From positions 2,131-66,130 of the forward strand of contig JAHKLN010000011.1 in the NCBI GenBank assembly GCA_020854755.1: a stretch of DNA of 64,000 nt, given 5' to 3'. Positions within the stretch are counted from its first letter, which is position 1. Each line of letters starts with the position of its first letter. Positions 30,970 through 52,504 of the stretch are shown in pieces. The position numbers and the translations under genes are program-made. The notes below the pieces were generated by a model. That model worked only from the letters and a program-made list of their open reading frames with translations. It was not told the DNA's origin and did not search any database. The stretch is from Methanomicrobiaceae archaeon (lineage in GTDB: Archaea > Halobacteriota > Methanomicrobia > Methanomicrobiales > Methanoculleaceae).

Positions 30970-30983
30970 GCTGTCAGACCTCC

Positions 30984-33062: not shown

Positions 33063-35686
33063 GCGAGCTCACCCCACTCTATCGGCCTCTGATCGATCTG
33101 GAGCAGTTCGGCAGGGGACGCGGCGGCGATATCCTCGCCGGAAGAGGGCTGTCTGGCGACGATCACCGCATTTCGCCCCCGCTGCCCGTCCGACCTGAAG
33201 AGGAGGCCGATCTCGACTGCAGACACACCGGGGACCGACTGGATCACCCCGGTCACCTCGCTGATCGTCACGGGCTGGCCGAACTCGCGGGCCTCGAACG
33301 AGAAGGCCTCCCTGACCGCACGCTCCGCATCGGCCAGGACCTTTGATCGGACGTACGCAGGATCGGTCTTTACGTTCGCGCGTATCTGGAAGAATACCGG
33401 ACGGAACGACAGCACCCGGACCGGGAGGCGGGGGTCGCCGCGGGTGCACAGCGCGGCCTTCAGCCCCTCGCAGGTGGGTCCGCCCGGAGGCACGCTCTCG
33501 CCCCCGGGACCGGCGACGGTGAGGAGGACGGCCCGGGACTGCCCCATCCATCCGTCGACGGCCATGGCTTTTGCGATGCCGGGGAAGGCCCTCGCGTACG
33601 ACGCAAAGTCCCGGATGGAGACGATCCGGTCCAGGGTGAGGACCGCGAGCGGCGAGTTCTGCCGGATCTCGCCGAGTGTCTCCGCATCGGCGCCTCCCGA
33701 TGCAGGCAGGGGGTTGGTGACGGACCGGACGCCCGGAGGCCGCCTGGTGAGCAGGGTGAGGCGTTCCGCCTCGAGGTTTCCGGCACGGCCGCTGCCGGAC
33801 CGGTAGGTGGCGGTGACGTTCTCCCTGCCTGAAGGCAGCCGCGCTCCCCGCTCGCCGTCGCCGAAGGTGACGGTGGTGGTGCCGTCCTCCTCGGTGCGGA
33901 CAGTGTAGCACCGGTCGCCGGGCCCTGCGTCGATCAGGCTCTCTGCTTCGCGCCAGAGCAGATCGTTGACCCGGATCTCAAGGCTCGATTCCAGACTGCC
34001 GGTCTCCCCCGAGGTGACGCAGGTGAGGGGAGCGGCCTTCAGGGAAAACTGCTGGTAGGAGAGCCTCCCGTCGCCGCTCCCGAGGACCTCCTCCCGGGTC
34101 TCGCCGTGCGTTGCCGCCGCCACATTTGCGTTGATCGTCACGCTCTCCCGCCTGTACCTGTGGGATAACGCCGTCGAGAAGGAGAGGAGGGTCAGGCCTT
34201 CTGCGATCTCGACGGAGGCGATCGTTACCGCTTCGTGCGCAGCAGACATCCTGAGATCGATCGGCGCTCCGGACAGCACGACGACCTGACCTTTCTGCAG
34301 CTCCGGATACGCCCCTTCCAGGACGACGGAGTCCCCTTCGACGGGAGTGGTGTCGGCCACCTCCGCAATCTCGAGCTCCTCGCTCTGGGCGGAGATGGCG
34401 GTCTCCCGGATTTTAAAGGAGGGGACGGCCCGATCCAGCCTGAGCCGGGAGACCCTCGCGCTGATCAGGTAGTCGCTCCGCGCCACCTCCTCGTTCTGGA
34501 CGACCGTGCCGAGGACTTCCTCTCCGGTGCGGGTATTTTTGAGAAGGATCCGGCTGCCGGGGAGGATGCCCGGATATGAGGCGTCCAGGTGGATGCAGTC
34601 GTGTACCCCAAAGAGGTTCGCGTCGTCGGCGAGCGTTGCATCGTCCCAGTTGCGATGGCCGCCTCTCCGGTCGTCGGGGAGCATATCATACCGGGGGGCG
34701 TTGTGGCCGAAGGGTGCGGTATGGCAGCGGAAGACAGAGACCCTGACTGTCTGCGCCAGAACGCGCCCGGCCCGCTGCATCTGCATGTTCTCCTTGAGTC
34801 TTTTGAGCGGCCATCCCTGGTGCGCGGCGAATGCAATCAGGTCGGCGGCCTGCCAGCGTTTATCGAGCACAGCGGACTTCACGTGGGCGTCGGTCATGGC
34901 CATGGCCTTCGAGATGAAGGCGGCCGGAGCCGCCGCGATCTGCGCCGTCACCGGGCCCGGGGGCGGTGCGGAGGCGAGGTGGACGCGGACGGTGCCGCGT
35001 GCTGTGTCCGGGAAGACCTCGGTCACCGTCCTGACCCTCTTCTCCTCCGCGCTCTTTGCAAGGAGGATCCGGTCGCCCGGCTTTACGGTGGCGGCGTTCC
35101 CCCGGATAGTGAAGGCCTCCGCGTCCAGGGAGATCTCCTGCGGGAGGTACAGCCGGGGTGAAATCGCGTTCCATTCGGTCCGTGCAGCAATCTCCTCGAC
35201 CGTCTCGAAGGTCAGGGGCGGCCGCCCGTCGAGCGGGATGCTCTGCACCCTCGTGCCCCTGCCGACCGGCACGGCCGCCAGATCGCTCTCCACCGTGAAT
35301 GCGAGGTAGGTGGCGGCAGCGGCGCCGGGCCGCAGCCGGTACCCGGTCAGGGCGGCGATGTGGGAGAGCGAGAGCCGTTCGGTGGCCGTCCGGAGGTAGC
35401 ATTCGTTTGCGATACGCTCCTGGTAAAAGGTCAGGACATCGCCGATCACCGCCCAGGCATCCAGCAGGGCGATGCTGAAGTCGCCGCTCTCCCGCGTCCG
35501 GAGGCCGGCGAGCGCCGGCCGTCTCTCTGTCCCGCTGAGTGCGGCCATCATGCTTGCCCTGAAGCGGGCGTGGTCGCCTGTCCGGTAGGAGATCATCCGG
35601 AGTCCCGGGCGGTTGTATATCCGTACGGGGGTCGCGCGGCGCATCCCCTCACAGCAGCCGCAGAGATCGGATCTTGCGCTCATCAT
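33059..35686 (-). CDS. baseplate-J-like protein, second paralog (Afp12 position)
   Basis: Start at ATG 35686 (ATGA overlap with the upstream stop). LLDAWAVIGDVLTFYQERIANECYLRTATERLSL parallels LVEVLAYLGDHLSYRQDAIATEAYLRTARRRVSV of the upstream protein. Confidence 0.8.
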   Translation of the reverse strand: MMSARSDLCGCCEGMRRATPVRIYNRPGLRMISYRTGDHARFRASMMAALSGTERRPALAGLRTRESGDFSIALLDAWAVIGDVLTFYQERIANECYLRTATERLSLSHIAALTGYRLRPGAAAATYLAFTVESDLAAVPVGRGTRVQSIPLDGRPPLTFETVEEIAARTEWNAISPRLYLPQEISLDAEAFTIRGNAATVKPGDRILLAKSAEEKRVRTVTEVFPDTARGTVRVHLASAPPPGPVTAQIAAAPAAFISKAMAMTDAHVKSAVLDKRWQAADLIAFAAHQGWPLKRLKENMQMQRAGRVLAQTVRVSVFRCHTAPFGHNAPRYDMLPDDRRGGHRNWDDATLADDANLFGVHDCIHLDASYPGILPGSRILLKNTRTGEEVLGTVVQNEEVARSDYLISARVSRLRLDRAVPSFKIRETAISAQSEELEIAEVADTTPVEGDSVVLEGAYPELQKGQVVVLSGAPIDLRMSAAHEAVTIASVEIAEGLTLLSFSTALSHRYRRESVTINANVAAATHGETREEVLGSGDGRLSYQQFSLKAAPLTCVTSGETGSLESSLEIRVNDLLWREAESLIDAGPGDRCYTVRTEEDGTTTVTFGDGERGARLPSGRENVTATYRSGSGRAGNLEAERLTLLTRRPPGVRSVTNPLPASGGADAETLGEIRQNSPLAVLTLDRIVSIRDFASYARAFPGIAKAMAVDGWMGQSRAVLLTVAGPGGESVPPGGPTCEGLKAALCTRGDPRLPVRVLSFRPVFFQIRANVKTDPAYVRSKVLADAERAVREAFSFEAREFGQPVTISEVTGVIQSVPGVSAVEIGLLFRSDGQRGRNAVIVARQPSSGEDIAAASPAELLQIDQRPIEWGELA

Positions 35687-38451
35687 CCACCTCGCAGTTC
35701 CATACGGAATACCCCGTGTTCGGGGAAGTTCGGGTCGTTGTCCAGGCGGGCGCACTCGAACTTCCTGATCGCCAGCCTGCCCGCATCGATCCCCTCGTTG
35801 CCGGGCTGCCCGAGCCGCCGGAACGTCGTCACCTCGCAGGCCGAGACGCCCTCGATCTCCCCGGCAGCCCGGTAGATATGACTCAGGTAGACCGGCTGCC
35901 CGAGCGAGAAGTTGTCTGGATGGAAGATCCCCCGCCGTCCATCGGGACGCCGGCCGGCGCTGAAGGTGGAGATCAGTTCCCGGGCGACATCCGACCGGTC
36001 ATACCCGGATTTGACGCATATCCGGACTGCGATCTCCAGAGGCACGTGGCGTGGCCCCCGGATCTCCAGATCCTGCCCCATGAACCGGTACCGGTCCAGG
36101 AACGCAAGGAGTTCCTCTTTGAACGGCTCGTCCACCTCCCTGCCGCCGAACCGGTCGACGGTGAGGAAGACCGTATACCAGCTCCCGGTCCACTGCAGCG
36201 CGGCCGCGGCCCGCTGGACCGAAGGATGGCGCATCGCGAGGGCTGCATAGTCCTCCGGGGTGACCGCACGCTCCTGGCGGCGGAACATGGACGGTGCGAT
36301 CTCGCGCACCCGGTCGATGCTCTCCGGTGCGGTGCCGCCGAACGCGGGCAGGGGGTTGTTGACGCCAACGATCGAGGGATCGTGGGCAACCATATGGACG
36401 AGCGTCTCGCTGCCGACGTTCCCCTCCGGCCCGTTGCCTGTCCGGTACGCCGCGAAAAACTCCTCCCCTGATGCCGGCCGCATCCCGAAACTGCCGTCCC
36501 CGAATCGTATCCAGGCAGATCCGTCCGACTCGGTCTCGATCACATATTCCCTTGCTTCCGGGGCGCTGTTGAGCAGATCGCGGACGGGAGACCAGGAGAA
36601 GGCCTGCTCTCTCCCGGACATCCGGCTGGAGAGCCGTACGGCAGGCCGGGCCTCCTCCGGCGACAACTCCCTGACCGCAGCCGCCGGAGGCGGGAGCGAG
36701 GAGACCAGGAGGCGTTCCGGGGCGTCCTCGTGAGCATTTTCGAGACGGATCCGGTAGGCCTGCGTGCCGTCTGAGATCGACCACTCGTCCAGCCTCCCCT
36801 GTATGGAGAGGCTCTCCGCTGCAAACACGATCCCCCGGTTCATGAACGCCTGGTGCAGATACGGGGGCAGTGCCCTGTCATCAAGGCTCTCTACCTGCCG
36901 GGCCAGCAGATCCTCCTCCCCTGCGGCAAACGCCAGTCCGAAGAGCGTCCGCTCGGCATACGGCAGCGCGTGGGTGAGCGGGCCGGCACCGAGCCGCGGC
37001 CGGAAGCGTGGCAAAACGGGCTGCTGCGCCGGGCGTGCGCAGGGATTGCCCGTCTCCTGCGGATCTGCGGCAAAGAAGAGTGCCGGTGCGGCCACCGTCC
37101 CGAGCGCCTCAGCCCCGGGCAGCGTGCGCCCGGCATCTGCCAGCACGATGTTCCCCAGCGCGATGCTGAGATCCTCGCAGTACTCCTCGCGCTTCCCGTC
37201 GGGGGAGACGGATCCCGATATGCAGAAGGCCGCCGGCAGCGCGTCCGCCGCGTCCCACCGGATCAGGGTGACGGGCGCCGGGCCGCCGTCCGCAGAACGG
37301 ACCGGATCCCCGGTGACCCGGACGTGGGTCAGGCGGACGGCATGCCGGTGCATACGGTCCGCTTCCTCCGGCCGGCCGGTGCGGGGATCCCGGTGCTCTG
37401 CAACGATCAACACGTCGCCGGCCATGAGGCCGGAGAGATCGCCCGCTAGCCAGGCCTCGGTCGCGCCTGCTGGCAGGCAGCACCGCCGGTCGCCCCAGGC
37501 ATAAAAGCGCATCTCATTCTGCGCCCGCGAAAGAACCGCGGAGTGGACCGTCTCGAACACTTCGGGCTTCTGATCCAGAGCTTTCTGGTACTCGCGGGAA
37601 TCCGGCGCGATCCGCGTCCCCGCTCCGGCGACCCCGGTGAGGATCTGCGTCCCGGGTGCGAGCCGGAGGCGGTCGCCCTCCACGCGGATATGCATCCATG
37701 CCCGGGCATTGCAGCCGTCGTGCATCCGGTAGTCGACCAGCCGGGCATGCCTCCGCACCGATACCCTCCGGCGTGCGGTACGGAGGTATGCCTCGGTGGC
37801 GATCGCGTCCTGCCGGTAGGAGAGGTGGTCTCCCAGATAGGCAAGGACCTCGACGAGCGCCATGCCGGCATCGGCGGGGTTTTGCTCGGTCCATTCCGGC
37901 AGCAGCAGGGCCATTCGATCGAGGATCAGCCTGCGGAAGCTCTCAAAGTCCCTGGCGCAGTAATCGATCTCCGGGGCGCGATCCGGGACGTCCGGACAGA
38001 CCATCTCCTCCCTGCAGTCGAACGTCCGGGGGCATCCCGCCTTGAAGGAGAACTCAACTGCGGAGAGCACCGGATCAAACCCTTCGGGCGGCTCCGCACT
38101 CGATCTCCCCCCCACCAGGCGGAGGGTGTAGGTGGAGAAGTCGCCCGGTGCATCGACCTCGATTATGAGAGTGCTCTCATCCTGTGCGGCGATGCTGCTC
38201 ACCGGAACCGTCTGTATGCGTGCGCCGCCTTCGATCCGGATCAGCCCGGCAGCTGCCGCTCCCGCGAGGGGCAGGCGATCGAGGATGCCTGCGGGCAGCT
38301 CCCGGATGAGGGTGAGGAGGATCGTCCTCTGGCGCTCATTCTCCGGCATGCCGGGCGCATCCACCACTTCGAGCGTCTCGATGCCGTTGTACGTGCTCCC
38401 GTGCCGCACCGCGTCGCGCCGGTCCCGGTTGCAGCAGGCATAGACGGCCAT
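35683..38451 (-). CDS. baseplate-J / T4 gp6 / Afp11-like baseplate wedge protein
   Basis: ATG 38451 (MAVYACCNRDRRDAV...) lies 1 nt after the gp25 stop. The ORF-track start 38469 is a TTG. Carries the conserved EAYLRTA block. Confidence 0.85.
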   Translation of the reverse strand: MAVYACCNRDRRDAVRHGSTYNGIETLEVVDAPGMPENERQRTILLTLIRELPAGILDRLPLAGAAAAGLIRIEGGARIQTVPVSSIAAQDESTLIIEVDAPGDFSTYTLRLVGGRSSAEPPEGFDPVLSAVEFSFKAGCPRTFDCREEMVCPDVPDRAPEIDYCARDFESFRRLILDRMALLLPEWTEQNPADAGMALVEVLAYLGDHLSYRQDAIATEAYLRTARRRVSVRRHARLVDYRMHDGCNARAWMHIRVEGDRLRLAPGTQILTGVAGAGTRIAPDSREYQKALDQKPEVFETVHSAVLSRAQNEMRFYAWGDRRCCLPAGATEAWLAGDLSGLMAGDVLIVAEHRDPRTGRPEEADRMHRHAVRLTHVRVTGDPVRSADGGPAPVTLIRWDAADALPAAFCISGSVSPDGKREEYCEDLSIALGNIVLADAGRTLPGAEALGTVAAPALFFAADPQETGNPCARPAQQPVLPRFRPRLGAGPLTHALPYAERTLFGLAFAAGEEDLLARQVESLDDRALPPYLHQAFMNRGIVFAAESLSIQGRLDEWSISDGTQAYRIRLENAHEDAPERLLVSSLPPPAAAVRELSPEEARPAVRLSSRMSGREQAFSWSPVRDLLNSAPEAREYVIETESDGSAWIRFGDGSFGMRPASGEEFFAAYRTGNGPEGNVGSETLVHMVAHDPSIVGVNNPLPAFGGTAPESIDRVREIAPSMFRRQERAVTPEDYAALAMRHPSVQRAAAALQWTGSWYTVFLTVDRFGGREVDEPFKEELLAFLDRYRFMGQDLEIRGPRHVPLEIAVRICVKSGYDRSDVARELISTFSAGRRPDGRRGIFHPDNFSLGQPVYLSHIYRAAGEIEGVSACEVTTFRRLGQPGNEGIDAGRLAIRKFECARLDNDPNFPEHGVFRMELRGG

Positions 38452-38452
38452 C

Positions 38453-38809
38453 CTACACCTCCCGGGCAAACCGGGCGGATTGACGCTCCTGGCTCCGGCG
38501 CACCACGTACTGCACCACGACCACGAGTGCCGCTTCCCGGCACTCCACGCTCACCTCCTCGACCTGGATCAGGTCCGAAAGCCACTTCTGCAGCGCACCC
38601 TGGACCATGAACTGCATTGCCGCGGAGGTCTCGTCACCTGCGGGGGCAAAGACAAGGTGCATCAGGCCGCAGCCGAAATCAGGGCGGTTTACCCGCTCTC
38701 CGGGCGAGGTGAAGAGCACCTGCTCGATCAGGTCGCGTATGTGTTCGTCCTCTCCTGCCGTTTTGGTCCCGCCCCGGGAGTCGAAGTGCAGGGGGAATTT
38801 GACCTGCAT
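38453..38809 (-). CDS. GPW/gp25-family baseplate wedge protein
   Basis: 118 aa. IRDLIEQVLFTSPGERVNRPDFGCGL is the characteristic gp25 block. Confidence 0.9.
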   Translation of the reverse strand: MQVKFPLHFDSRGGTKTAGEDEHIRDLIEQVLFTSPGERVNRPDFGCGLMHLVFAPAGDETSAAMQFMVQGALQKWLSDLIQVEEVSVECREAALVVVVQYVVRRSQERQSARFAREV

Positions 38810-41064: not shown

Positions 41065-41715
41065 CTAGAGGATCCTGCTCATACCCGCCGCATCAAGGCC
41101 GGTGGGAATGCCTATTCTGGCCATGGTCTCCTTGCCGATCTGGTGGGCGATGAAGAGGGCGTGCCCCGGATGCGACGGCATGAGATCGTTGTAGCTCAGC
41201 ACCCGGAGGCCGAGGGTTACCCTGGCCCGGATCGGGTTGAGATGTACGTCGTGCGCCTCTTCGGTCACCCTGAACTCGGTCACCTGAACGGGGAGGATGC
41301 GCATGGGCCCGTAGATGAAGAGGGTGAAGGCAGCCGGCGGGGGCACGACCTCGATGATCCCCATCTCCATGAGGGCAATGTTTGCAAGCACCCTGCTGCT
41401 CTGCGGATAGAGGAGCACCTCGAGCGCCGCGAGCTGGGGGTGGATGCCCATGCCGGTCGCGAGGACGTCAGCCTTTTCCAGCTGATCCGTGGCGTCGATC
41501 TCCAGCTCGAGGCTGATCGTCTCGACCGGCGCCCCCTTCAACCGGAGGGCCGACGTCCGTTCCCCGCCCTCTCCTCCGGCCGTCTGCGCCTGCAGCGTCC
41601 GCGTGAGCGTATCGGGGTTATACTGAAAGACTATCACGCTGGGTGTGGGGCTGGGCAGATCGAAGGACACAAGCGCCCCTTTGAGAAGCCTTGGGGAACC
41701 GGGAAATGTCGTCAC
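41065..41715 (-). CDS. conserved tail protein with tube-adaptor/initiator-like N-terminus (Afp5/Afp7 class, tentative)
   Basis: GTG start with GGGG ~10 nt upstream. LLKGALVSFDL...VIVFQYNPDTLTRTL. First gene after a ~300-bp gap. Confidence 0.7.
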   Translation of the reverse strand: MTTFPGSPRLLKGALVSFDLPSPTPSVIVFQYNPDTLTRTLQAQTAGGEGGERTSALRLKGAPVETISLELEIDATDQLEKADVLATGMGIHPQLAALEVLLYPQSSRVLANIALMEMGIIEVVPPPAAFTLFIYGPMRILPVQVTEFRVTEEAHDVHLNPIRARVTLGLRVLSYNDLMPSHPGHALFIAHQIGKETMARIGIPTGLDAAGMSRIL

Positions 41716-42012
41716 TACATATAACCCCTTTGTATATCAGTAAAGAAGGTGCATCAGGAATAAAGGTTTTTGGTTGATTGTTTCTGCTTCCTGTGGAATC
41801 TTCGCGTCTCTGCATCGTCTGTTGTCAGTCGATGCATGATCCGGTGCTTCTCCGGGCGGGATCTTCACCGGTCTCCCTGCAGCCTCCGGCCTCGTGAGCC
41901 GCTCCATGCAGGCGGTCGATCCTGCCGGGGGAAGAGGGTGAGCCGATCCTTTATGGACCGGCAGGCAGGCCTCCCGGCAGAGGAACGCCTGCATCACCGT
42001 GCACCGGAGAGG

Positions 42013-42939
42013 CTACTGCTCTTCGTAATAGCCTCCCGATCCGGCCTTTGGTACCGAACTGCGGCTGGCGGGCGAGCTCGGGATGACATTCCCCGCCCCG
42101 TCAAGCACCCTGAGTTGACCGGCGTCCAGGCGTCTCTGGCAGCACAGGTCGCAGTCCGATCCGCCGCAGGCGCGCCCCTCTGCATTGTTATGCAGATCCA
42201 TCTTATTCTCATTGGCAGGCCCGTCGCCATGGCGTTCGTGGCCGGTGGCGATGGTCTCTGCCTGGTCGGCGCCAATTTCAGCCGTCATCGTGCAGTTCCA
42301 GTAACAATGCCGCCAGGCGTCTGCGGGCCCGTTATGCAGCCCCGGCAGTCCCGTCGCTCTGGCTCGTACCAGGGCGCGATCGGCAAGCCGGCTTGCCTTG
42401 TAGGCATCCCAGGGGCCGACTCCCAGGACAGCGCTCCACATCTCGCCCAGACCGGCGCGGGCGATCTGCAGCCCGGAGGGCGTCACCCTGGGGGGCTCCA
42501 CCCGCCCGTGCAGCACCTGTCTGGCTGCGGCGATGGCCTCACGTTCGTACAGGTCTCCTTCCTGGCCGCCACTGCCGGCGCTCTGCTGCATCGCGTGGGT
42601 CAACTCATGGGCGAGTAGTTGTCGCCCTTCGCCTGTTTCCGGGGCGTACTGCCCGGTCCCGAAGACCAGGTCCCGTCCCACCGTGTACGCCTTCGCATTC
42701 ACCGCTCGCGCCGACTCCGCGGCTTTTGCGCCAGTATGCACCCGCACCCGGGCAAAATCGTGGTTGAATCCCGATTCCATGAACTCCCGCGTCCTCCGGT
42801 CCAGCGGCTGCCCGGGCGAGCGCAGCACCTCGTGCACGATCGGCGGGATATGGCCGGCATCGCGGCGCTGCAGGATGCCGGCCCGGGAGGGCGTGATAGA
42901 GGATGCCGCCGCCGCAGCCTGGTGGTGTTTCATGGTCAT
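42013..42939 (-). CDS. DUF4157 (HExxH zincin-like) protein with unknown Cys/His-rich C-terminal domain; candidate eCIS payload
   Basis: PIVHEVLRSPGQPLDRRTREFMESGFNHDFARVRVHTGAKAAESARAVNAKAYTVGRDLVF...LLAHELTHAMQQ. The C-terminal part has ADAWRHCYWNC, HERHGDG, MDLHNNAEGR and CGGSDCDLCC. Confidence 0.85.
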   Translation of the reverse strand: MTMKHHQAAAAASSITPSRAGILQRRDAGHIPPIVHEVLRSPGQPLDRRTREFMESGFNHDFARVRVHTGAKAAESARAVNAKAYTVGRDLVFGTGQYAPETGEGRQLLAHELTHAMQQSAGSGGQEGDLYEREAIAAARQVLHGRVEPPRVTPSGLQIARAGLGEMWSAVLGVGPWDAYKASRLADRALVRARATGLPGLHNGPADAWRHCYWNCTMTAEIGADQAETIATGHERHGDGPANENKMDLHNNAEGRACGGSDCDLCCQRRLDAGQLRVLDGAGNVIPSSPASRSSVPKAGSGGYYEEQ

Positions 42940-42947
42940 TGAGAACC

Positions 42948-44327
42948 TCAGCGTGCGTACCTGCTGTTGATCATCCTGCGCAGTCCTCGCTCGCCGCCCA
43001 GCCGGAACGTGGGATCTTGCTCGTAGAGGAACCGGAAGATGCGTTCCCGTGCACGCTGCTCGACCTGCTGGTTTAACAGCGCCGTGCGCTTCTGGAGTTC
43101 GGGTCCCCAGCTGTCAATAGGCTGGTAGAGTAGGACTTCCGGTGCCATGCGGCGATACTGGTCGCGAAACTCCGTGCGCCGCAGAAACTCAATCTCCATC
43201 TGAATGGCCCGCCGAACGCTCTGTTCGGACGGCGTCAGCTCGCGGCGAATGGCGCGGCGCAGGTGCTCGAAGGCGGTGCAGCTGATCCCGAAACACGTCC
43301 GCTCTTCTCTGGGCCGTCTGTCTTCCGGTGCCGCACTGATGGTTGCTTGCGGGCGCTGCCGCCGGGGCGCCGGCAATGGCGTGGGGGCAGGCTTCGGGGT
43401 GGGCGCCGGTGGCGGTGCCATGCGGTGGGCGACGACGCTGCGGCGGTCCGCACGCGCGCCGGGCGTTGCACCGTGCTTGAAGATGCCGGCGATCCGGGCC
43501 GGAAAGACACTCGCGTTCTCCAGCACGCTTCTCGCTCTGAGCGCCCGCAGGCAGGAGAGATGTTCGTTGAAATCGGCCGGCCCGTCTTCGCTTGCAAACC
43601 CGTGAATCGTCACGGAGTCGCCGGGCTGAAGCCGACCGGCAAAACTGCGCAGCCGTGCTTCTTCGCCGGCGAGAAAATCGTCGCAGTTCACGGCGAACCG
43701 GAAGAGCTCCTCGCTGCTTGTACCGACGTCGGTGATGTCGCCGCACATGCCCTCACAGCCCGCGACGGGGCGCATGCCGGATGGCCTGTAGCATGCCCGC
43801 TGGAGCGGCGCCGGGGCATTGCCGCACCGCCCGGCACTGGAGCGGCCATCGGCCGACCCCGACGCGATCTGATCGGCCTCGTGCTCGTACCGGCTCTCGC
43901 ACGGCTCTATCCTGAGGTCTCCTGGCGTGCGTACGCCGCCCTGCTGCACCACGTGAGCCAGTTCGTGCATCAGCAGCGCTCTTCCTTCCGCCATATCCGG
44001 CGCAAATCGGCCGGCGTCAAAGACGATGTCGCGGCCGACCGTATACGCCAGCGCGTTGACCGCCCGCGCCGATTCCGCCGCCTTTGCATCCGCGTGCACC
44101 CGCACCCGGGAAAAGTCGTGGCCGAACCGGGGCTCCATATCGGCGCGGGTGGCCGGGTCGAGAGGCCGCCCCGTGGAGCGCAGCACTTCATGCACGATCG
44201 GCGGCGCCATCTCCTGCGTGGACCTCAGAGCCGAACGCTGCAGGGCCGGCATCTTTTGAGAACAATCGCATATCCGCTGCAGGACTCCGCCGGCCTGTTC
44301 TGCCTGAGCAGCAGCCATCTGTCTCAT
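42948..44327 (-). CDS. DUF4157 (HExxH zincin-like) protein with OmpA-C-like domain and basic helical tail; candidate eCIS payload
   Basis: PIVHEVLRSTGRPLDPATRADMEPRFGHDFSRVRVHADAKAAESARAVNALAYTVGRDIVF...LLMHELAHVVQQ. The middle region VTIHGFASEDGPADFNEHLSCLRALRARSVL is OmpA/MotB-like. A PAPTPKPAPTPLPAP linker follows. Confidence 0.85.
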   Translation of the reverse strand: MRQMAAAQAEQAGGVLQRICDCSQKMPALQRSALRSTQEMAPPIVHEVLRSTGRPLDPATRADMEPRFGHDFSRVRVHADAKAAESARAVNALAYTVGRDIVFDAGRFAPDMAEGRALLMHELAHVVQQGGVRTPGDLRIEPCESRYEHEADQIASGSADGRSSAGRCGNAPAPLQRACYRPSGMRPVAGCEGMCGDITDVGTSSEELFRFAVNCDDFLAGEEARLRSFAGRLQPGDSVTIHGFASEDGPADFNEHLSCLRALRARSVLENASVFPARIAGIFKHGATPGARADRRSVVAHRMAPPPAPTPKPAPTPLPAPRRQRPQATISAAPEDRRPREERTCFGISCTAFEHLRRAIRRELTPSEQSVRRAIQMEIEFLRRTEFRDQYRRMAPEVLLYQPIDSWGPELQKRTALLNQQVEQRARERIFRFLYEQDPTFRLGGERGLRRMINSRYAR

Positions 44328-44581
44328 CTCCCTATCCCTCCGTATACTGCCTGTGCGATTCGGGTGCCGAGATTGCAGGGGTCGTTTCCGCCCTCCAGCC
44401 GGATCGTCCCCCCGGGCACGCGTGGCCGTGCGCCCCCCGGGGCGAGATCGGCGGAGAGCCCGCCGGCGGCCAGCATCCGCGCCAGCTTGCCCTCCACCGC
44501 CGCCTGCAGGAGCGGGCGCTCGCTGTAAGGGATATCGATCCCGTCCAGCACCAGGCGCTCGATATGTACCGTGATCTTCAT
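44324..44581 (-). CDS. small conserved eCIS-associated protein (85 aa)
   Basis: Start at ATG 44581 (MKITVHIERLVLDGIDIPY...). ATGA overlaps on both sides, with the ATPase stop and the DUF4157 start. Confidence 0.6.
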   Translation of the reverse strand: MKITVHIERLVLDGIDIPYSERPLLQAAVEGKLARMLAAGGLSADLAPGGARPRVPGGTIRLEGGNDPCNLGTRIAQAVYGGIGR

Positions 44582-46629
44582 GCGTCTCCTCCTTTCTTCG
44601 CCGCCTCCGTCCACCGGAAGTCGGCCTCGTTGATCGGGCGCTCCATCTTCCGGAACTCGGCCCTTGCCGCCTGAAGCACGAGCGGCATGGTCACCGGGGT
44701 GCCTGCCTCTGCCGCAAGGAAGGCGGCGTTGAGGGCGGTGTTGTGGATGCTCCCACCGGTCAGGTTCAGCCGGGCCAGCCGGTCGATCTCCAGCCCCTCG
44801 GTCTCTGTCTCGGGTGGAAAGACCCTCTCCCAGATGCGCCTGCGTTCGGGCTGCCCCGGGAAGGGGAAGGCGACGATGAACCTGAGCCTGCGGAGGAAGG
44901 CGGGGTCGAGCGATGACTTCATGTTCGTCGCCAGGATCGCAAGCCCCCTATACGCCTCGATCCGCTGCAGCAGGTAGTTGATCTCGATATTCGCATAGCG
45001 GTCGTGGCTGTCCTTCACCTCGCTGCGTTTGCCGAAGAGGGCATCGGCTTCGTCGAAGAAGAGGATCGCCCCTCCGTCCTCCGCCGCGTCGAAGAGCCGC
45101 CGCAGGTTCTTCTCCGTCTCACCGATATACTTGTTGACCACGGCGGAGAGGTCAATGCGGTACAGATCAAGGCCGAGATCGTTGGCGATCACCTCTGCGG
45201 CCATGGTCTTGCCGGTACCGCTCTCCCCTGCAAAGAGTGCGCTGATCCCGAGCCCGCGGTTCATCCGGTGCCGAAATCCCCACTCGTCGTAGACAGTGCT
45301 TCGCCGCCTCACCTGGTCGGCGATCCGGCGGAGCAGTGACTGTTGCTCCTCGGGAAGGACGAGATCCTCCCATCGGGCCTTCGGATCGATCCGCCGTGCA
45401 AGCTGCTCTATCCCCGGCCGGGTTCTCTCCAGGCATGCCGACCACAGCCCGTCATGGAGGCCGGTATCGCCGTCGTCCGCCCCGTCGAGCACCGGGCCTG
45501 CGATCTGCCGGATCGCCTGAAGGTTCAGGTTGAACTGGCCGGCGAGGAGTGCCGGGCTCTCTTTGCCCCTCTCTCCGAGCGCCGCAGCCCACGCAGCCTT
45601 CTGTTCGGCCGGTGTCGGTCGCTCGATGTCCAGGATCAGGGTGGTGCGATCGAGATCCGGCCTGACCTCCCGGGTGTCGATCAGGGCAGGGCCTCCGTAC
45701 AGCAGGAGAAAACGTTCGAGCGTAGCGTTCTGTGCCTCGCCGGCCGTTCCCGGTTCACCCTCCAGGCCGGCGTCGAGGTAGAGTGCTATCGGCACAAGCA
45801 GGCTCTCGCGCTGCCAGAGACGGGCCAGCATATCGAGGTCGGCCGCCTGGGAAGGCAGCAATGCAACGGGGATACGGGTGATCCGGATGCCGGCGCTCAA
45901 TACGGCGTGGTGCGTCACGGCCTGCTTGCTCACCGTATCAGGACCGACGAGCTGGACAAGAGTCGGCCTTCCGGAATCGCCCTCCCCCTGCAGATGCCGT
46001 CGAATGCGTTCGGCTGCGGCGAACTGGCTCGGGGAGAGCGCTTCCGGTTCGGCGTATGCCGTATCGAACGGGACGGTGAACGGGATCAGCCGGTTGTCGA
46101 GCCTGTTATGCCCCTTGATGAAATGCACAACCCGCTCGTCGGCCTGCAGGGCGCTGGCGGTCAGGGGAAGGGCCGCCTGCTGGTGGCATTCGATCAGGCG
46201 GTAGTAGCGCAGCGGGCGTTCCGGCAGGAGCGCATCCCAGGAACGATCCTCAAACAACGCGAGCGCCAGGGCAAACGTCGGGTAGGGCCTTCCGGGGTCG
46301 TCCTGCGCCCGGGCGCAGAGCCCGGAAATCCTGGTATCGAGCTCCATGGCGGCGCAGAGCAGGAGCACCTCCTGCTCGAACCGGGAGAGCCCGAACTGCC
46401 GGGCAAGGAGGGTCAGCGCCGGAGAAGGAAGCGCCGCTTCGGCGGCGGCCATGGCTTCCGCGGCACGGGCGATTGCTTCGCCCGAAGGGAGGCGCCCTTC
46501 GGGCGATCCCCCTGCCTGCGGTTCGTCCGGGCCGCCGGCTGCGAACCGCTGCAGGAGGAGGCGAAGCCAGGCTAATGCCGCGGCGAGGTACTCCTCGTTG
46601 TTCTCTTCCCACTCTTCGTATGGACTCAT
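44578..46629 (-). CDS. AAA+ ATPase (Afp15-like)
   Basis: Walker A GESGTGKTMAAE, Walker B ILFFDEADALF, sensor LAILATN, and a ~400-aa non-ATPase N-terminal region. Confidence 0.95.
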   Translation of the reverse strand: MSPYEEWEENNEEYLAAALAWLRLLLQRFAAGGPDEPQAGGSPEGRLPSGEAIARAAEAMAAAEAALPSPALTLLARQFGLSRFEQEVLLLCAAMELDTRISGLCARAQDDPGRPYPTFALALALFEDRSWDALLPERPLRYYRLIECHQQAALPLTASALQADERVVHFIKGHNRLDNRLIPFTVPFDTAYAEPEALSPSQFAAAERIRRHLQGEGDSGRPTLVQLVGPDTVSKQAVTHHAVLSAGIRITRIPVALLPSQAADLDMLARLWQRESLLVPIALYLDAGLEGEPGTAGEAQNATLERFLLLYGGPALIDTREVRPDLDRTTLILDIERPTPAEQKAAWAAALGERGKESPALLAGQFNLNLQAIRQIAGPVLDGADDGDTGLHDGLWSACLERTRPGIEQLARRIDPKARWEDLVLPEEQQSLLRRIADQVRRRSTVYDEWGFRHRMNRGLGISALFAGESGTGKTMAAEVIANDLGLDLYRIDLSAVVNKYIGETEKNLRRLFDAAEDGGAILFFDEADALFGKRSEVKDSHDRYANIEINYLLQRIEAYRGLAILATNMKSSLDPAFLRRLRFIVAFPFPGQPERRRIWERVFPPETETEGLEIDRLARLNLTGGSIHNTALNAAFLAAEAGTPVTMPLVLQAARAEFRKMERPINEADFRWTEAAKKGGDA

Positions 46630-47849
46630 GGCAGGATCGTGATCGTCTGGTCTTCTGCAAACCCGGGCGGCGACTGCGAGAAGTCCACCGGGTTGCTGTC
46701 CACGCCGTCCACCCGTACCCGGACGACATACTCCCCGGGCTCGAGGTCGCTTGCACGCACCTGGAGGATCGTGGGCTTCCCTTCATCGGGGGGGGTTGTG
46801 ACGGCCTGGATCTCCGTCTCGCGATCCCCGAGGAGCACCATGACCCGCTGCCCCTCCCGCACCCGGGGAGCGCACTCCAGGGTGAGGAGGAGGTCGCCGC
46901 TGTCCGCCTGAACCGGCGTGATCCCCGATGCGCGGGGGGCGAGGGCAAAGGAGACCTCGTTCGTTGTCCTGGCGGGAAGATCCGGCGCCCGGAGGCGAAG
47001 GGCCAGGGTATAGAACCCTGCCGGCCAGCGTTCGAGCGCAAGGGGGTCCGTGCCGGTATCCGGGATCCTCAAGAAGAGGGTACCGGGCTGATTTCCCGGG
47101 AGAGGCGCGAGCGTATGCGCTTCCCGAAGAAGGGGCGATCGGATCTCCGCCGTGAGCCCTTCGCCGTCCAGATGCTCTCCCGAAACAACCAGATCGCCAC
47201 CGAGCTCCACCCCGAACGCGCCGTTTTTGGGGGCAGCTCCCCGGAGGGCGGGCGTGCCGGTGGGCAGGAGGAAGACGCCCCTGCCGTCCCGGCCGAGCTT
47301 CAGCACCGGCAGCGGCATCTTCGCAGGCCGGTCGCTCTCTATCAGGACGACGTGTACCTGGTATGCCGCGGAGATGCGGTACTGCGTCTGGAACGCGGTC
47401 CAGAGCCGGGAGATCTCGTCCAGAGACAGGGACAGGGGCGTGATGCGCACCCGCTCCGCCTGCTCGTGCAGGTCGGCGCCCGTCACGGCATGCCGGAGCC
47501 TGCCCGGGCTCAGGGAGGGGGTGTCGTGCAGGATCCGCATGGCGTGGCCCAGGAGCTGGTGGGCCATCAGATCGTCGTTGTCCCTGCCGTATGCCGTGAT
47601 CAGGTAATGGAGGTCGAGGGCTAGGGGAGGGTGTCCCCCCTCTCCCGGCAGGGCCATGTTCCGCCATGCGGCGTTGATCCCTGTCTGGTAGAGGAAGATA
47701 TTCACCTGGTTTGCACTGTTGCTGCCCCGTGCCTTGTCCGGCGGCTGGACCGTGACGATCGTGTCCGCCAGGGACGGATCCGCTGCGACCTCCATCAGGA
47801 GGCCCTGCAGGGCGGCGGTCACCGCCGCAATGGAACGGAAATTGCTCAT
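46626..47849 (-). CDS. DUF4255 / Pvc16-Afp16-like tail cap (terminator) protein
   Basis: MSNFRSIAAVTAALQGLLMEV...VNIFLYQTGINAAWRN is the DUF4255-type N-terminus. ATGA overlaps at both ends. Confidence 0.85.
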   Translation of the reverse strand: MSNFRSIAAVTAALQGLLMEVAADPSLADTIVTVQPPDKARGSNSANQVNIFLYQTGINAAWRNMALPGEGGHPPLALDLHYLITAYGRDNDDLMAHQLLGHAMRILHDTPSLSPGRLRHAVTGADLHEQAERVRITPLSLSLDEISRLWTAFQTQYRISAAYQVHVVLIESDRPAKMPLPVLKLGRDGRGVFLLPTGTPALRGAAPKNGAFGVELGGDLVVSGEHLDGEGLTAEIRSPLLREAHTLAPLPGNQPGTLFLRIPDTGTDPLALERWPAGFYTLALRLRAPDLPARTTNEVSFALAPRASGITPVQADSGDLLLTLECAPRVREGQRVMVLLGDRETEIQAVTTPPDEGKPTILQVRASDLEPGEYVVRVRVDGVDSNPVDFSQSPPGFAEDQTITILP

Positions 47850-49563: not shown

Positions 49564-49568
49564 AACCT

Positions 49569-50096
49569 CTAGCCGGGCGGTTCGGTGAAGGTGGGCTCGG
49601 TCGGTTCGGTCACCGCATAATCGCGCTCCCAGCCCTCGTTCTCCAGTTTCAACGTCTGGATTGCGACTGCATTGGCATTGGCGTCCAGGTCGGGAATGGC
49701 CTGGTACTCCGAGACCCAGCACCGGTATACTTTATACGCGATCGCAAGCTGCCCTGCCTCGTTGTATATCTCGATGATGATATCCTTGCGGAAATCCTTC
49801 AGCGAGACCTCGGAGCCGAGGCCGGAGCCGTAGTTCCAGACCTTGTTTGCCCATTGCTCAAACTCGACGTCATGGGTGACGCCCCGTTCAAGGGTGATCG
49901 GCTCATACTTCGTCCGGCCCGGCGATTTTCTCGAGGAGGAGGGATCTCCCCCTTCCCGGTGCTCCACCACCTCGGTGGTCCGCTTGAGCGCACCGATCTT
50001 CGATACTCCCGCAACGTACCGGCCGTCCCATTTCACGCGAAACTTGAAGTTCTTATAGGGATCGAACCTCTGCGGATTGACGCTGAAATTGACCAT
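49569..50096 (-). CDS. contractile-tail tube protein (T4 gp19-like)
   Basis: MVNFSVNPQRFDPYKNFKFRVKWDGRYVAGVSKIGALKRTTEVVEHREGGDPSSSRKSPGRTKYEPITLERGVTHD. GGAGG lies 10 nt upstream. Confidence 0.95.
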   Translation of the reverse strand: MVNFSVNPQRFDPYKNFKFRVKWDGRYVAGVSKIGALKRTTEVVEHREGGDPSSSRKSPGRTKYEPITLERGVTHDVEFEQWANKVWNYGSGLGSEVSLKDFRKDIIIEIYNEAGQLAIAYKVYRCWVSEYQAIPDLDANANAVAIQTLKLENEGWERDYAVTEPTEPTFTEPPG

Positions 50097-50109
50097 ACTG
50101 ACTCGCCTC

Positions 50110-51723
<1,614 letters not shown>

Positions 51724-52504
51724 CAATTTTCTCCTTTCTTTTTAGTAGTTCAGACCTCGAATATGCAGGGGTCTTCCTGAATCGCCATCCTGGCGGCAGA
51801 TATCGGGACGGCCGCGGCGCTGTCCACGGCATCGGATCAAAAAGAGCATGGCAGGTGCCTGATCGAACAGCACAACGCCTCCGGAGCTCGATAGTACATG
51901 CGGTGACCCGGGTAAGACCGGTTCATCTCCTCTGCCATCGGTTGTGCATGTACGATGCCCCCCGTCCATGTCCGCGGCGGTAAGGAGTGGTTGGGTTAAA
52001 CCCGCGTCTTCTGGCTGTACAATCAACGCAATGTCCGTTTCCCCTGTGTTAATCAATACTGCGATTATACCGCAGGCGTCCACACTCCAATCTCCGGCAG
52101 ATGAAATCGCCGGACAACCCCGGAACCCTGTCGTTGAATGCCCGATCGGTCTGTTTCGGCGTGGATCCCTACACACATCACTATACAGTGCCCTTAAAAA
52201 AACCTTTTGGTTATCAGAAATACCGCTGATATCCTGAATTACTCTTTGCACAAAAATTTCTCCGCACCCTCTCTCCGGGCGCCCGTTCAGGAGGCAGTCA
52301 TGCCGGAAGGGATCAGAGTCCCTGACCGGGCCGATGTGAACCCCCGGTGCGACCTCTGCCCGGGAGGTGGCGGATCAACCGGGGAAAATGCCGCGATCTC
52401 CTCAAACACGCCGGTGTAACCCGAACAGTGAGAACAGGCGTACCCCCCGGGGGCATCGGTGGACGGATCGTATCCGGCGGATTTGGATGTGCCGGATAGG
52501 TGAG

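What the first reader, a model, noticed from the sequence alone, without database searches (positions are those of the whole stretch)
42085..42447. Unassigned Cys/His-rich C-terminal domain (ADAWRHCYWNC ... HERHGDG ... MDLHNNAEGR ... CGGSDCDLCC)
Seen in sequence: residues ~165-285 of the 308-aa DUF4157 protein form a compact region with conserved-looking His, Cys and Asp motifs after the metallopeptidase-like domain.

Inference: it sits where an effector module would be expected in an eCIS payload, so it is a candidate novel toxin or enzyme domain. I vaguely associate D-A-[FW]-R-H-x-Y-W-N and MDLHNN motifs with an uncharacterised bacterial DUF. I cannot name it reliably.
Basis: inference. Interest (0 to 1): 0.65.

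Follow-up and report, generated by a model that had tools for sequence, protein, structure and literature searches.

The report
BteO-like toxin domain on eCIS cargo
The C-terminal domain is real but already catalogued: it is Pfam DUF6973, the same toxin domain as the Bacteroides fragilis effector BteO that attacks the bacterial cell envelope, here carried by a cargo protein of a phage-tail-like injection machine.

Summary
Residues 165-285 of the 308-aa protein (window 42013-42939, minus strand) are there as described. They form a confidently folded domain (AlphaFold2 pLDDT 90) of six helices and a beta-hairpin.

The domain is not unassigned. It matches Pfam DUF6973 (PF22322) at E 1.9e-19. Its only structural match in the PDB is BteO, a B. 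fragilis T6SS effector (9uu0), and BteO itself scores as DUF6973 (E 3e-14). The six BteO residues whose mutation abolishes toxicity and OmpA binding are kept here: R210, H211, H234, E235, E244 and D248.

The family is large (7,444 clusters at 50% identity). The domain sits at the C-terminus of RHS toxins, in PT-HINT proteins and after eCIS_core, so it is a polymorphic-toxin domain. Non-eCIS loci carry a lipoprotein-like candidate immunity gene directly downstream.

The cysteines are specific to a subfamily. They come and go in pairs, which suggests three disulfides rather than catalytic residues.

The gene lies in the variable cargo slot of an eCIS operon. Most likely it is an injected antibacterial toxin acting on the envelope like BteO. 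Whether it acts by binding OmpA-like domains or by an unrecognised catalysis is unresolved.

Verdict: a new member of a known kind, of moderate interest.

The parts
42013..42939 (-). Complete gene for a 308-aa eCIS cargo protein: N-terminal region (residues 1-44), eCIS_core/DUF4157, linker, then DUF6973 toxin domain.
   Evidence: ORF; Pfam PF13699 and PF22322; full-length homologues with the same architecture.
42574..42807 (-). eCIS_core (DUF4157, 'PVC-metallopeptidase') domain, residues 45-122, containing HELTH (HExxH).
   Evidence: Pfam PF13699, E 1.8e-31. It marks eCIS cargo and toxins (PMC8213781; AlgoCIS Cgo1/Cgo2 architecture).
42085..42447 (-). DUF6973 (BteO-like) toxin domain, residues 165-285: six helices plus a beta-hairpin. 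Conserved groove residues are D207, R210, H211, H234, E235, E244, D248, N251 and N252.
   Evidence: Pfam PF22322, E 1.9e-19. AlphaFold2 pLDDT 90. Foldseek top PDB hit 9uu0_A BteO, probability 1.00, TMq 0.56. Profile against PDB sequences, E 1e-5. hhalign probability 94%. Conservation.
42139..42306 (-). Span holding the six cysteines C212, C216, C258, C263, C266 and C267. Inferred disulfide pairs are C216-C263, C258-C266 and C212-C267.
   Evidence: Presence and absence co-vary across 219 family members: 216/263 discordant in 4, 258/266 in 27, 212/267 in 47. Patterns are CCCCCC 57, CC.C.C 57, none 12. The Streptomyces homologue P0029 lacks both C212 and C267.
42948..44327 (-). Upstream neighbour, a second cargo-type protein (459 aa): eCIS_core, then an OmpA_C/Pal/MotB-like domain, a Pro-rich linker and an unassigned helical C-terminal domain.
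   Evidence: Pfam PF13699, E 1.7e-31, and sub-threshold OmpA, 23.8 against 27.2 bits. AlphaFold2 pLDDT 86. Foldseek hits Pal, MotB, OprF and 9uu2, the B. fragilis OmpA C-like domain.
44578..46629 (-). eCIS AAA+ ATPase (Afp15/Pvc15-type; WHD plus AAA), the presumed cargo loader, directly upstream of the cargo genes.
   Evidence: Pfam PF22977 and PF00004. Same order in syntenic loci. Role of Alg15 in loading.
46626..47849 (-). Pvc16_N tail-terminator or cap protein of the eCIS.
   Evidence: Pfam PF14065, E 2.2e-49.
49569..51726 (-). eCIS tube (gp19-like, 49569-50096) and sheath (50110-51726) genes.
   Evidence: Pfam PF06841, E 1.7e-47; PF04984 and PF17482.
41065..41715 (-). 216-aa gene just downstream of the cargo slot. 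By synteny it is the second CIS tube-type protein.
   Evidence: No Pfam hit here. The 217-218-aa gene at the same position in syntenic loci carries PF19266 CIS_tube.
33059..38469 (-). Two large Baseplate_J-like baseplate genes of the same eCIS operon.
   Evidence: Pfam PF04865.

Best explanation
The region is the toxin domain of an eCIS cargo protein and belongs to Pfam DUF6973, the family of the B. fragilis T6SS effector BteO.

Proposed mechanism, with each step marked.
1. The protein is made in the producer's cytoplasm without a signal peptide (read from the sequence).
2. Its N-terminal region plus eCIS_core directs it, with the adjacent AAA+ ATPase, into the tube of the contractile particle (by analogy with AlgoCIS Cgo1/Cgo2; inferred).
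3. After injection into a target bacterium the domain refolds in the cell envelope. Up to three disulfides may stabilise it there (inferred from paired cysteine co-occurrence).
4. Its conserved groove (R210/H211, H234/E235, E244, D248, N251/N252) engages an envelope target. By homology with BteO this target would be the peptidoglycan-anchoring OmpA_C-like domains, so the outer membrane-cell wall tether fails and the cell lyses (inferred from one characterised homologue).
5. No immunity gene is needed here because the toxin is harmless in the cytoplasm, as shown for BteO.

My confidence differs by level: family membership about 0.95, toxin or cargo role about 0.8, the specific non-enzymatic OmpA-binding mechanism about 0.4.
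For: Membership. Pfam PF22322 at 69.9 bits against a gathering score of 27. The BteO fragment also scores as PF22322, E 3e-14. BteO is the only significant hit to the family profile among PDB sequences, E 1e-5. It is also the only confident Foldseek PDB hit, probability 1.00, TMq 0.56 over 128 columns. hhalign probability is 94%.

Functional residues. BteO mutations R143A, H144A, H167A, E168A, D187A and D191A abolish toxicity and OmpA9 binding (PMC12541434). They align to R210, H211, H234, E235, E244 and D248. Five of these six columns are conserved in at least 217 of 221 aligned family rows; E244 is less conserved, at 153 of 221.

Toxin status. The domain sits at the extreme C-terminus of RHS proteins and occurs in PT-HINT proteins. 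The median is 17 residues after the domain. A conserved lipoprotein-like gene of about 150 aa overlaps the stop codon in some of 6 non-eCIS loci, as expected for a periplasmic immunity protein.

eCIS cargo. The gene lies between the AAA+ ATPase and the second tube gene of a complete eCIS operon. Syntenic loci hold variable arrays of eCIS_core fusion genes in that slot, with CHAP and PLA2-like domains among them. 59 of 218 family proteins carry eCIS_core.

Envelope site. Cysteines vary in pairs. BteO is toxic only in the periplasm.
Against: Nothing was tested experimentally for this protein.

BteO is a distant homologue (23% identity, RMSD 4.0 A) and lacks the cysteines. Only a fragment of its sequence, recovered from an alignment, could be compared.

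A stoichiometric binder fits poorly with a single-shot particle that carries few cargo molecules, because OmpA-family proteins are very abundant. The BteO authors themselves blamed weak in vitro killing on this imbalance.

Seven or eight nearly invariant polar residues (D, R, H, H, E, D, N, N) across thousands of clusters look more like an active site than a protein interface. These clusters include a Streptomyces protein, and structurally similar DUF6973 proteins occur in phages.

The candidate immunity family found here has no Pfam hit and could not be shown to resemble OmpA, unlike BtiO.

The target organism of this eCIS is unknown.
Confidence: 0.55

Rival explanations
1. DUF6973 is an unrecognised enzyme, a hydrolase or transferase acting on an envelope component, possibly on OmpA-like proteins or on a peptidoglycan- or lipid-linked substrate. 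H211, H234, E235 and D248 would form a catalytic or metal-binding site. OmpA binding in BteO would then reflect substrate recognition.
For: D207, R210, H211, H234, E235, D248, N251 and N252 are nearly invariant in 219 diverse members, and the family has 7,444 clusters. The domain is delivered by systems that inject few molecules, namely eCIS, RHS/T6SS and phage proteins. BteO changed muropeptide composition in vivo. Only glycosidase and amidase activities on peptidoglycan were excluded, and in vitro killing was weak for a binder. Immunity genes differ between lineages: BtiO against the lipoprotein family.
Against: No similarity to any known enzyme fold or family was found. Foldseek against the PDB gave only BteO, and Pfam and NCBIfam gave no enzyme family. 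Overexpressing OmpA6, OmpA8 or OmpA9 rescues cells from BteO, and a triple ompA deletion phenocopies intoxication. Both fit titration of a binder. I could not inspect model coordinates to test whether the residues form a metal-site geometry.
Confidence: 0.3
2. The domain is an effector aimed at eukaryotic cells (protists, fungi or invertebrates), as with the classic Afp, PVC and MAC eCIS, and not at bacteria.
For: The best-studied eCIS target eukaryotes, and many eCIS toxins lack immunity genes (PMC8213781). No immunity gene lies next to this gene.
Against: The same domain is carried by RHS toxins with an adjacent lipoprotein-like immunity candidate. The characterised member is antibacterial and acts in the periplasm. 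Cargo arrays of syntenic eCIS carry peptidoglycan-related modules: CHAP and OmpA-like. Lack of an immunity gene is explained if the toxin is inert in the cytoplasm.
Confidence: 0.08
3. The domain is not a toxin for target cells. It would be a structural or assembly factor of the particle, or a factor that helps lyse the producer to release particles.
For: The role of DUF4157 proteins is still debated, and a contribution of eCIS toxins to producer lysis has been suggested. Roseomonas and Neoroseomonas carry 176-aa stand-alone DUF6973 proteins in housekeeping neighbourhoods.
Against: The slot is variable between syntenic loci and DUF6973 is replaceable by other C-terminal domains, so it is not a conserved structural part. 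There is no signal peptide to reach the producer's own envelope. The RHS and PT-HINT contexts are typical of toxins.
Confidence: 0.05

Closest known systems
BteO, a Bacteroides fragilis GA3 T6SS effector (PDB 9uu0; He et al., PNAS 2025, PMC12541434)
   Same: Same Pfam family, DUF6973, and the same helical fold. The RH, HE and D motifs that are essential for BteO toxicity and OmpA9 binding are conserved. The predicted site of action is the envelope.
   Different: Delivery differs: eCIS_core cargo of an extracellular contractile particle here, a T6SS effector with an N-terminal transmembrane helix for BteO. Identity is only about 23%. This protein has six cysteines (three inferred disulfides) and BteO has none. 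There is no separate BtiO-like immunity gene here. D207 in this protein is N in BteO.
DUF4157/eCIS_core cargo proteins (AlgoCIS Cgo1/Cgo2; EATs of Geller et al. 2021, PMC8213781)
   Same: The architecture is N-terminal region, then DUF4157 with HExxH, then a variable C-terminal effector. The gene sits inside an eCIS operon next to the AAA+ ATPase.
   Different: The searched literature does not describe a DUF6973 C-terminal domain among validated eCIS toxins: no paper contains 'DUF6973' or 'PF22322', and it is absent from the Danov 2024 supplements. Here the cargo genes lie mid-operon, between the ATPase and the second tube gene, not at the 3' end.
RHS / PT-HINT polymorphic toxins (Zhang et al. 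2012, PMC3482391)
   Same: DUF6973 occupies the variable C-terminal toxin position of RHS proteins, with a small immunity-like gene immediately downstream.
   Different: The window protein has no RHS or HINT module. DUF6973 is not among the Tox or Ntox families named in that compendium, as far as the Pfam scan shows.
Tox-DHNNK and group XIV (prokaryotic/fungal) phospholipase A2: motif look-alikes
   Same: Only superficial motif resemblance: D-x-H-N-N to 'DHNNK', and R-H-C-Y-W-N to the PLA2 'RHDFGYxN' motif (the PLA2 motif is from my memory).
   Different: Tox-DHNNK has the HNH/EndoVII fold, whereas this domain is helical. No Pfam hit to PLA2 families at E<=1 and no PLA2 structure among the Foldseek hits.

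Membership tests
Pfam DUF6973 (PF22322) | Score against the family HMM above the curated gathering threshold | tested here: met
   69.9 bits for the whole protein and 72 bits for the domain alone, against a cut-off of 27; E 1.9e-19.
Pfam DUF6973 (PF22322) | Family signature residues: G-P-x-D-A-x-R-H, H-E, M-D-x-x-N-N-x-x-G | tested here: met
   All are present: GPADAWRH 204-211, HE 234-235, MDLHNNAEG 247-255. These columns are at least 97% conserved in 219 members.
BteO-type envelope (OmpA-targeting) effectors | Domain homologous to BteO 83-end in sequence and fold | tested here: met
   Foldseek 9uu0_A, probability 1.00, E 0.073, TMq 0.56. Profile against the PDB chain, E 1e-5. hhalign 94%, E 1.3e-7. 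BteO is in PF22322.
BteO-type envelope (OmpA-targeting) effectors | Conservation of residues required for toxicity and OmpA9 binding (R143, H144, H167, E168, D187, D191) | tested here: met
   They align to R210, H211, H234, E235, E244 (D to E) and D248.
BteO-type envelope (OmpA-targeting) effectors | Toxic in the periplasm but not the cytoplasm; binds OmpA_C-like domains | not testable with these tools
   Needs expression and pull-down experiments. The only indirect hints are the paired cysteines and lipoprotein-type immunity candidates in other loci.
BteO-type envelope (OmpA-targeting) effectors | Adjacent cognate immunity gene encoding a periplasmic OmpA_C-like mimic (BtiO) | tested here: not met
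   No small immunity ORF lies beside the gene. There is no homologue of the lipoprotein immunity candidates in the window. The neighbour does contain an OmpA_C-like fold, but it is a cytoplasmic eCIS_core cargo-type protein and the pairing is not conserved.
BteO-type envelope (OmpA-targeting) effectors | Delivery by a T6SS | tested here: not met
   The gene sits in an eCIS operon (sheath, tube, Pvc16, AAA+, baseplate J) and carries eCIS_core.
eCIS cargo proteins with DUF4157/eCIS_core | eCIS_core domain with HExxH, N-terminal to a variable effector domain | tested here: met
   PF13699, E 1.8e-31, residues 45-122; HELTH at 111-115.
eCIS cargo proteins with DUF4157/eCIS_core | Encoded within an eCIS gene cluster | tested here: met
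   syntenic clusters.
eCIS cargo proteins with DUF4157/eCIS_core | Disordered N-terminal loading sequence; physical presence in the tube lumen | not tested
   Residues 1-44 are Ala/Ser/Pro/Arg-rich (read from the sequence) but no disorder predictor was run. Loading needs mass spectrometry of purified particles.
Polymorphic-toxin C-terminal domain | Occurs as the extreme C-terminal module of RHS or PT-HINT proteins, with a downstream immunity gene | tested here: met
   RHS-DUF6973 in L010, L013, P0171, P0218, P0162, P0120 and P0211. PT-HINT in L006, P0025 and P0028. Conserved downstream gene in 6 loci.
Tox-DHNNK (HNH/EndoVII nuclease toxins) | HNH/EndoVII beta-beta-alpha fold | tested here: not met
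   The model is helical with only a terminal hairpin. Fold definition from PMC3482391.

The most novel reading that the evidence does not exclude
The OmpA_C-like modules on this eCIS lineage's cargo proteins could be built-in target mimics. They occur in trans in the neighbouring gene 42948-44327, and in cis in eCIS_core-OmpA-like-DUF6973 fusions such as P0229, P0206, P0207 and P0172. They would occupy the DUF6973 groove in the way the immunity protein BtiO does for BteO. The toxin would then be shipped with its own decoy, which is displaced in the target's envelope. This would be a previously undescribed 'immunity-in-cargo' arrangement.
Probability: 0.1. Interest if true: 0.7.

Novelty: new member of a known kind. 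Interest (0 to 1): 0.38.

Why it matters
It links three things that the searched literature keeps apart. Pfam's uncharacterised DUF6973 is not mentioned in any searched paper. BteO was described as a 'unique' effector without homologues. eCIS cargo is the third.

If DUF6973 is the BteO family, then BteO-like toxins are widespread (thousands of clusters). They would be delivered by RHS/T6SS systems and by eCIS, and the domain also occurs in phage proteins.

It would also give this eCIS lineage a predicted antibacterial, envelope-directed payload. Very few eCIS have a known bacterial target.

Delivery by a single-shot particle sharpens an open question: can a purely stoichiometric OmpA binder kill, or does the invariant R-H / H-E / D / N-N site hide a catalytic activity?

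Tried and rejected
1. Direct sequence search of the domain against PDB sequences gave only chance hits (superoxide dismutase 'WNHxYWNC', E about 1). The link to BteO appeared only with a profile and with the predicted structure.

2. NCBIfam and PADLOC scans gave nothing.

3. Literature searches for 'DUF6973' and 'PF22322', and in the supplements of Danov et al. 2024, found nothing.

4. Tox-DHNNK, suggested by the D-x-H-N-N motif, was rejected because it has an HNH fold.

5. Group XIV PLA2 was considered because of RH(C/D)(Y/F)..N. It was rejected for lack of any Pfam or Foldseek support.

6. I tested whether the OmpA-like neighbour is the cognate immunity partner. The fold is confirmed and cis fusions exist. 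However, the same module precedes unrelated C-terminal domains such as a PLA2-like one. In 9 other loci examined, DUF6973 genes and OmpA-like genes are not neighbours, and no OmpA family showed among the 25 neighbour families listed for 22 genome loci. The idea is kept only as a low-probability novel case.

7. I searched the window for the lipoprotein-like immunity family by tblastn and found no hit at E<1.

8. Promoter and terminator scans around the cargo genes gave nothing above chance. GC content matches the flanks, so there is no sign of recent transfer.

9. I could not read model coordinates, so disulfide geometry and a possible metal site were not checked.

10. The source organism was not determined. 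The closest genome hits are MAGs of Verrucomicrobiota and Acidobacteriota at 65-68% identity.
Full report
**1. What is in the sequence**

The finding lies in a 308-aa ORF on the minus strand, 42013..42939. Coordinates 42085-42447 correspond to residues 165-285. The quoted motifs are all present: ADAWRHCYWNC (206-216), HERHGDG (234-240), MDLHNNAEGR (247-256) and CGGSDCDLCC (258-267). The N-terminal half is eCIS_core/DUF4157 (PF13699, residues 45-122, E 1.8e-31) and includes HELTH, an HExxH motif.

**2. Genomic setting**

The gene sits in a complete extracellular contractile injection system (eCIS) operon on the minus strand. In order the operon holds:
- sheath (50110-51726)
- gp19-like tube (49569-50096)
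- T4_baseplate-like gene (48841-49722)
- Pvc16_N (46626-47849)
- WHD plus AAA ATPase (44578-46629)
- two eCIS_core genes (42948-44327 and 42013-42939)
- a 216-aa gene that is a CIS_tube protein by synteny (41065-41715)
- further spike and baseplate genes, including two Baseplate_J-like genes (33059-38469) and a DUF6519/beta-helix protein (28198-30987)

In syntenic loci from metagenomes, the slot between the ATPase and the second tube gene holds a variable array of two to five eCIS_core fusion genes. Their C-terminal domains differ: DUF6973, AMOP, TIG, CHAP, a PLA2-like domain and unknowns. The slot is therefore a cargo island, and DUF6973 is one interchangeable cargo module. GC content matches the flanks.

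**3. Identity of the domain**

The domain is not unassigned. It matches Pfam DUF6973 (PF22322) at E 1.9e-19, 69.9 bits against a gathering score of 27. NCBIfam and PADLOC give nothing. No paper in the searchable library contains 'DUF6973' or 'PF22322'.

A word-indexed search found 12 relatives, and 79 when repeated with a profile. An exhaustive profile search of 1.84 billion cluster representatives found 7,444 at E<=1e-3 and 2,845 at E<=1e-10.

AlphaFold2 with an 85-sequence alignment gives a confident model (pLDDT 90.3, pTM 0.86). It has six helices followed by a short beta-hairpin, and the last 20 or so residues are disordered.

**4. Link to a characterised protein**

Foldseek against the PDB returns one confident hit. 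It is 9uu0_A, an MBP fusion of the B. fragilis T6SS effector BteO (probability 1.00, E 0.073, TMq 0.56, 128 columns, 23% identity). All other hits have probability 0.13 or less.

Three further tests agree:
- The family profile finds the same chain among all PDB sequences at E 1e-5. The aligned motifs are NAFRH / AHEEN / IDLLNNQIGR.
- hhalign gives 94% probability.
- The BteO fragment recovered from that alignment scores as PF22322 itself (E 3e-14, 53 bits).

BteO is therefore a DUF6973 protein. Its paper says BLAST and JackHMMER found no motifs of known peptidoglycan hydrolases, calls it a 'unique' effector, and does not mention the Pfam family.

**5. What is known about BteO** (PMC12541434)

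- It is toxic only when directed to the periplasm.
- It causes elongation, blebbing and lysis.
- It shows no peptidoglycan glycosidase or amidase activity in vitro.
- It binds the C-terminal OmpA-like domains of several OmpA-family proteins.
- Overexpressing these proteins rescues cells, and a triple ompA deletion phenocopies intoxication.
- The immunity protein BtiO is a periplasmic structural mimic of the OmpA_C-like domain that sits in the alpha3-alpha6 groove.
- R143A, H144A, H167A, E168A, D187A and D191A abolish both toxicity and OmpA9 binding.

In my alignments these six residues correspond to R210, H211, H234, E235, E244 and D248 of the window protein.

**6. Family-wide conservation**

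I aligned 219 family members plus the query. Nearly invariant columns are G204, D207, A208, R210, H211, A227, H234, E235, M247, D248, N251, N252, G255, G274 and L276.

The cysteines are not part of it. C212, C216, C263 and C267 occur in about 70% of members, C258 and C266 in about 35%, and BteO has none. Their presence and absence co-vary in pairs across 219 members:
- 216 with 263: 4 discordant
- 258 with 266: 27 discordant
- 212 with 267: 47 discordant, of which 46 are a C212-only clade

The Streptomyces homologue P0029 has lost 212 and 267 together. Loss in pairs fits three disulfides better than a four-cysteine metal site. That in turn fits a domain that works in an oxidising compartment. 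This is an inference. The statistics are not corrected for phylogeny, and I could not inspect the model's coordinates.

**7. Evidence that DUF6973 is a polymorphic-toxin domain**

Among the longest members, most are RHS proteins with DUF6973 at the extreme C-terminus. Others carry PT-HINT. Of 218 family proteins, 59 carry eCIS_core, and the median tail after the domain is 17 residues.

In six non-eCIS loci (L009, L010, L011, L012, L016, L017) a conserved gene lies directly downstream. These loci come from Verrucomicrobiota, Phycisphaerae, Victivallales and Limnobacter. The gene encodes about 150 aa, overlaps the toxin's stop codon by 4 nt in some loci, and its product has a hydrophobic N-terminus followed by a cysteine in most, which looks like a lipoprotein. 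It has no Pfam match. This is what a periplasmic immunity protein would look like. It has no homologue in the window. The viral structure library also holds phage proteins annotated as DUF6973.

**8. The neighbouring gene**

The upstream gene (42948-44327) encodes eCIS_core plus a region with a sub-threshold OmpA hit (23.8 against 27.2 bits). An AlphaFold2 model of its residues 170-309 (pLDDT 86) matches Pal, MotB and OprF. It also matches 9uu2, the B. fragilis OmpA C-like domain released together with the BteO structure (E 4e-6, TMt 0.79, RMSD 1.8 A).

Homologues of this module include proteins in which it is fused between eCIS_core and DUF6973: P0229, P0206, P0207 and P0172. In P0168 it directly precedes DUF6973. 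Since BteO binds OmpA_C-like domains and is neutralised by an OmpA_C mimic, this juxtaposition is striking.

However, the same module also precedes unrelated C-terminal domains, for example a PLA2-like CCxxHDxCY domain in P0220. In other loci, genes with the OmpA-like module and DUF6973 genes are not neighbours. No OmpA family appeared among the 25 neighbour families listed (of 46 found) for 22 genome loci.

I therefore read the module as a general accessory domain of this lineage's cargo, plausibly one that targets the envelope. A specific decoy role remains a low-probability novel case. In this module the canonical DAP-binding Asp of OmpA-like domains (the D of Pal 'GHAD') is an invariant Ser, and four cysteines are invariant.

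**9. Most likely mechanism**

The protein has no signal peptide (read from the sequence). It has the layout of the AlgoCIS cargos Cgo1 and Cgo2: an N-terminal region, then DUF4157, then a C-terminal domain. In those cargos the disordered N-terminal region is required for loading into the tube, a step the authors attribute to the AAA+ protein, and DUF4157 is dispensable.

I infer the following. The protein is loaded into the particle. It is injected into a target bacterium and refolds in the envelope. It then acts through the conserved groove as BteO does, compromising the outer membrane-peptidoglycan connection. The missing immunity gene is explained if the toxin is inert in the cytoplasm, as BteO is.

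**10. Main rival**

The main rival is that the domain is a cryptic enzyme. Three arguments support it:
- The near-invariance of seven or eight polar, catalytic-type residues across thousands of clusters, plus structurally similar DUF6973 proteins in phages.
- Delivery by devices that inject only a few molecules, against targets present in very high copy number.
- The authors' own note that BteO kills weakly in vitro because of effector-to-target imbalance.

Against it, no enzyme fold or family resembles the domain, and the BteO genetics fit titration. I rate the binder mechanism at about 0.4 and the enzyme at about 0.3. Family membership and the toxin or cargo role are much more secure.

**11. 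Verdict**

- It is a new member of a known kind: a DUF6973/BteO-family toxin domain on an eCIS_core cargo protein.
- Interest is moderate. The useful new points are the DUF6973-BteO equation, the breadth of the family and of its delivery routes, the paired cysteines, a candidate immunity family, and the recurrent OmpA_C-like module in eCIS cargo.

Noticed in passing
window 42948-44327 (-): The neighbouring cargo-type protein has eCIS_core, an OmpA_C/Pal/MotB-like domain (AlphaFold2 pLDDT 86; Foldseek hits include 9uu2, the B. fragilis OmpA C-like domain), a Pro-rich linker and an unassigned helical C-terminal domain of about 120 aa. The canonical DAP-binding Asp is an invariant Ser and four cysteines are invariant in this module. 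The module recurs between eCIS_core and varied C-terminal domains: PLA2-like in P0220, DUF6973 in P0229, P0206, P0207, P0172 and P0168.
   Followed up: partly
L010:6348-6818, L011:1168-1632, L012:6258-6749, L016:6333-6782, L009:953-1417, L017:~6381-6635: A conserved lipoprotein-like gene of about 150 aa lies immediately downstream of RHS-type or short DUF6973 toxin genes, overlapping the stop codon by 4 nt in some loci. It shows an F/WxWDxL...PYTP motif and has no Pfam family. It is a candidate immunity family for DUF6973 toxins.
   Followed up: partly
L006:5326-6900 and proteins P0025, P0028, P0091, P0094, P0111: In some proteins DUF6973 is not terminal. It is followed by a PT-HINT/Hint module of about 180 residues (eCIS_core-DUF6973-PT-HINT). 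This reverses the usual order, in which the pretoxin HINT precedes the toxin domain.
   Followed up: no
L015, L018-L025 (Roseomonas, Neoroseomonas, Roseococcus, Acetobacteraceae genomes): Stand-alone DUF6973 proteins of 176 aa keep only C212 and lie in housekeeping-type neighbourhoods (ABC transporters, aminotransferases). No obvious secretion-system or immunity gene is nearby, so their role may differ from the toxin-fused forms.
   Followed up: no
BFVD hits A0A6J7WY85, A0A6J5T7E5, A0A6J5KNR3, A0A5Q2W5P5: Uncultured Caudovirales phages encode DUF6973 domains, some inside very large proteins (770-1438 aa; one is annotated PcfJ-like). This hints at a virion-associated or injected envelope-acting role in phages.
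   Followed up: no
window 41716-42012: A 300-bp gap with lower GC (about 0.57 against 0.66) separates the cargo genes from the downstream tube-like gene. It contains an AT-rich stretch (TATATAACCCCTTTGTATATCAGTAAAGAAGG). No sigma-70-like promoter or terminator was detected above chance.
   Followed up: partly
L004:4298-5200 and L004:6365-8509 (Ca. Udaeobacter MAG; same in L005): The closest genomic homologue (68% identity) lies between two other eCIS_core fusion genes. One has a Cys-rich C-terminal domain. The other (714 aa) has a second HExxH-type motif (THELVHAM) near its C-terminus. This is another multi-gene cargo array.
   Followed up: no
L030:7358-8512 and L030:6001-7335: A syntenic eCIS cargo array includes an eCIS_core-CHAP fusion (a peptidoglycan amidase/peptidase family) and an eCIS_core-OmpA-like-PLA2-like fusion. 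This suggests that the eCIS lineage carries envelope-directed, antibacterial payloads.
   Followed up: no
window 28198-30987 (-) and 33059-38469 (-): The same operon holds a large DUF6519 plus beta-helix protein (a possible tail fibre or receptor-binding protein) and two tandem Baseplate_J-like proteins of about 900 aa each. These were not examined for target specificity.
   Followed up: no
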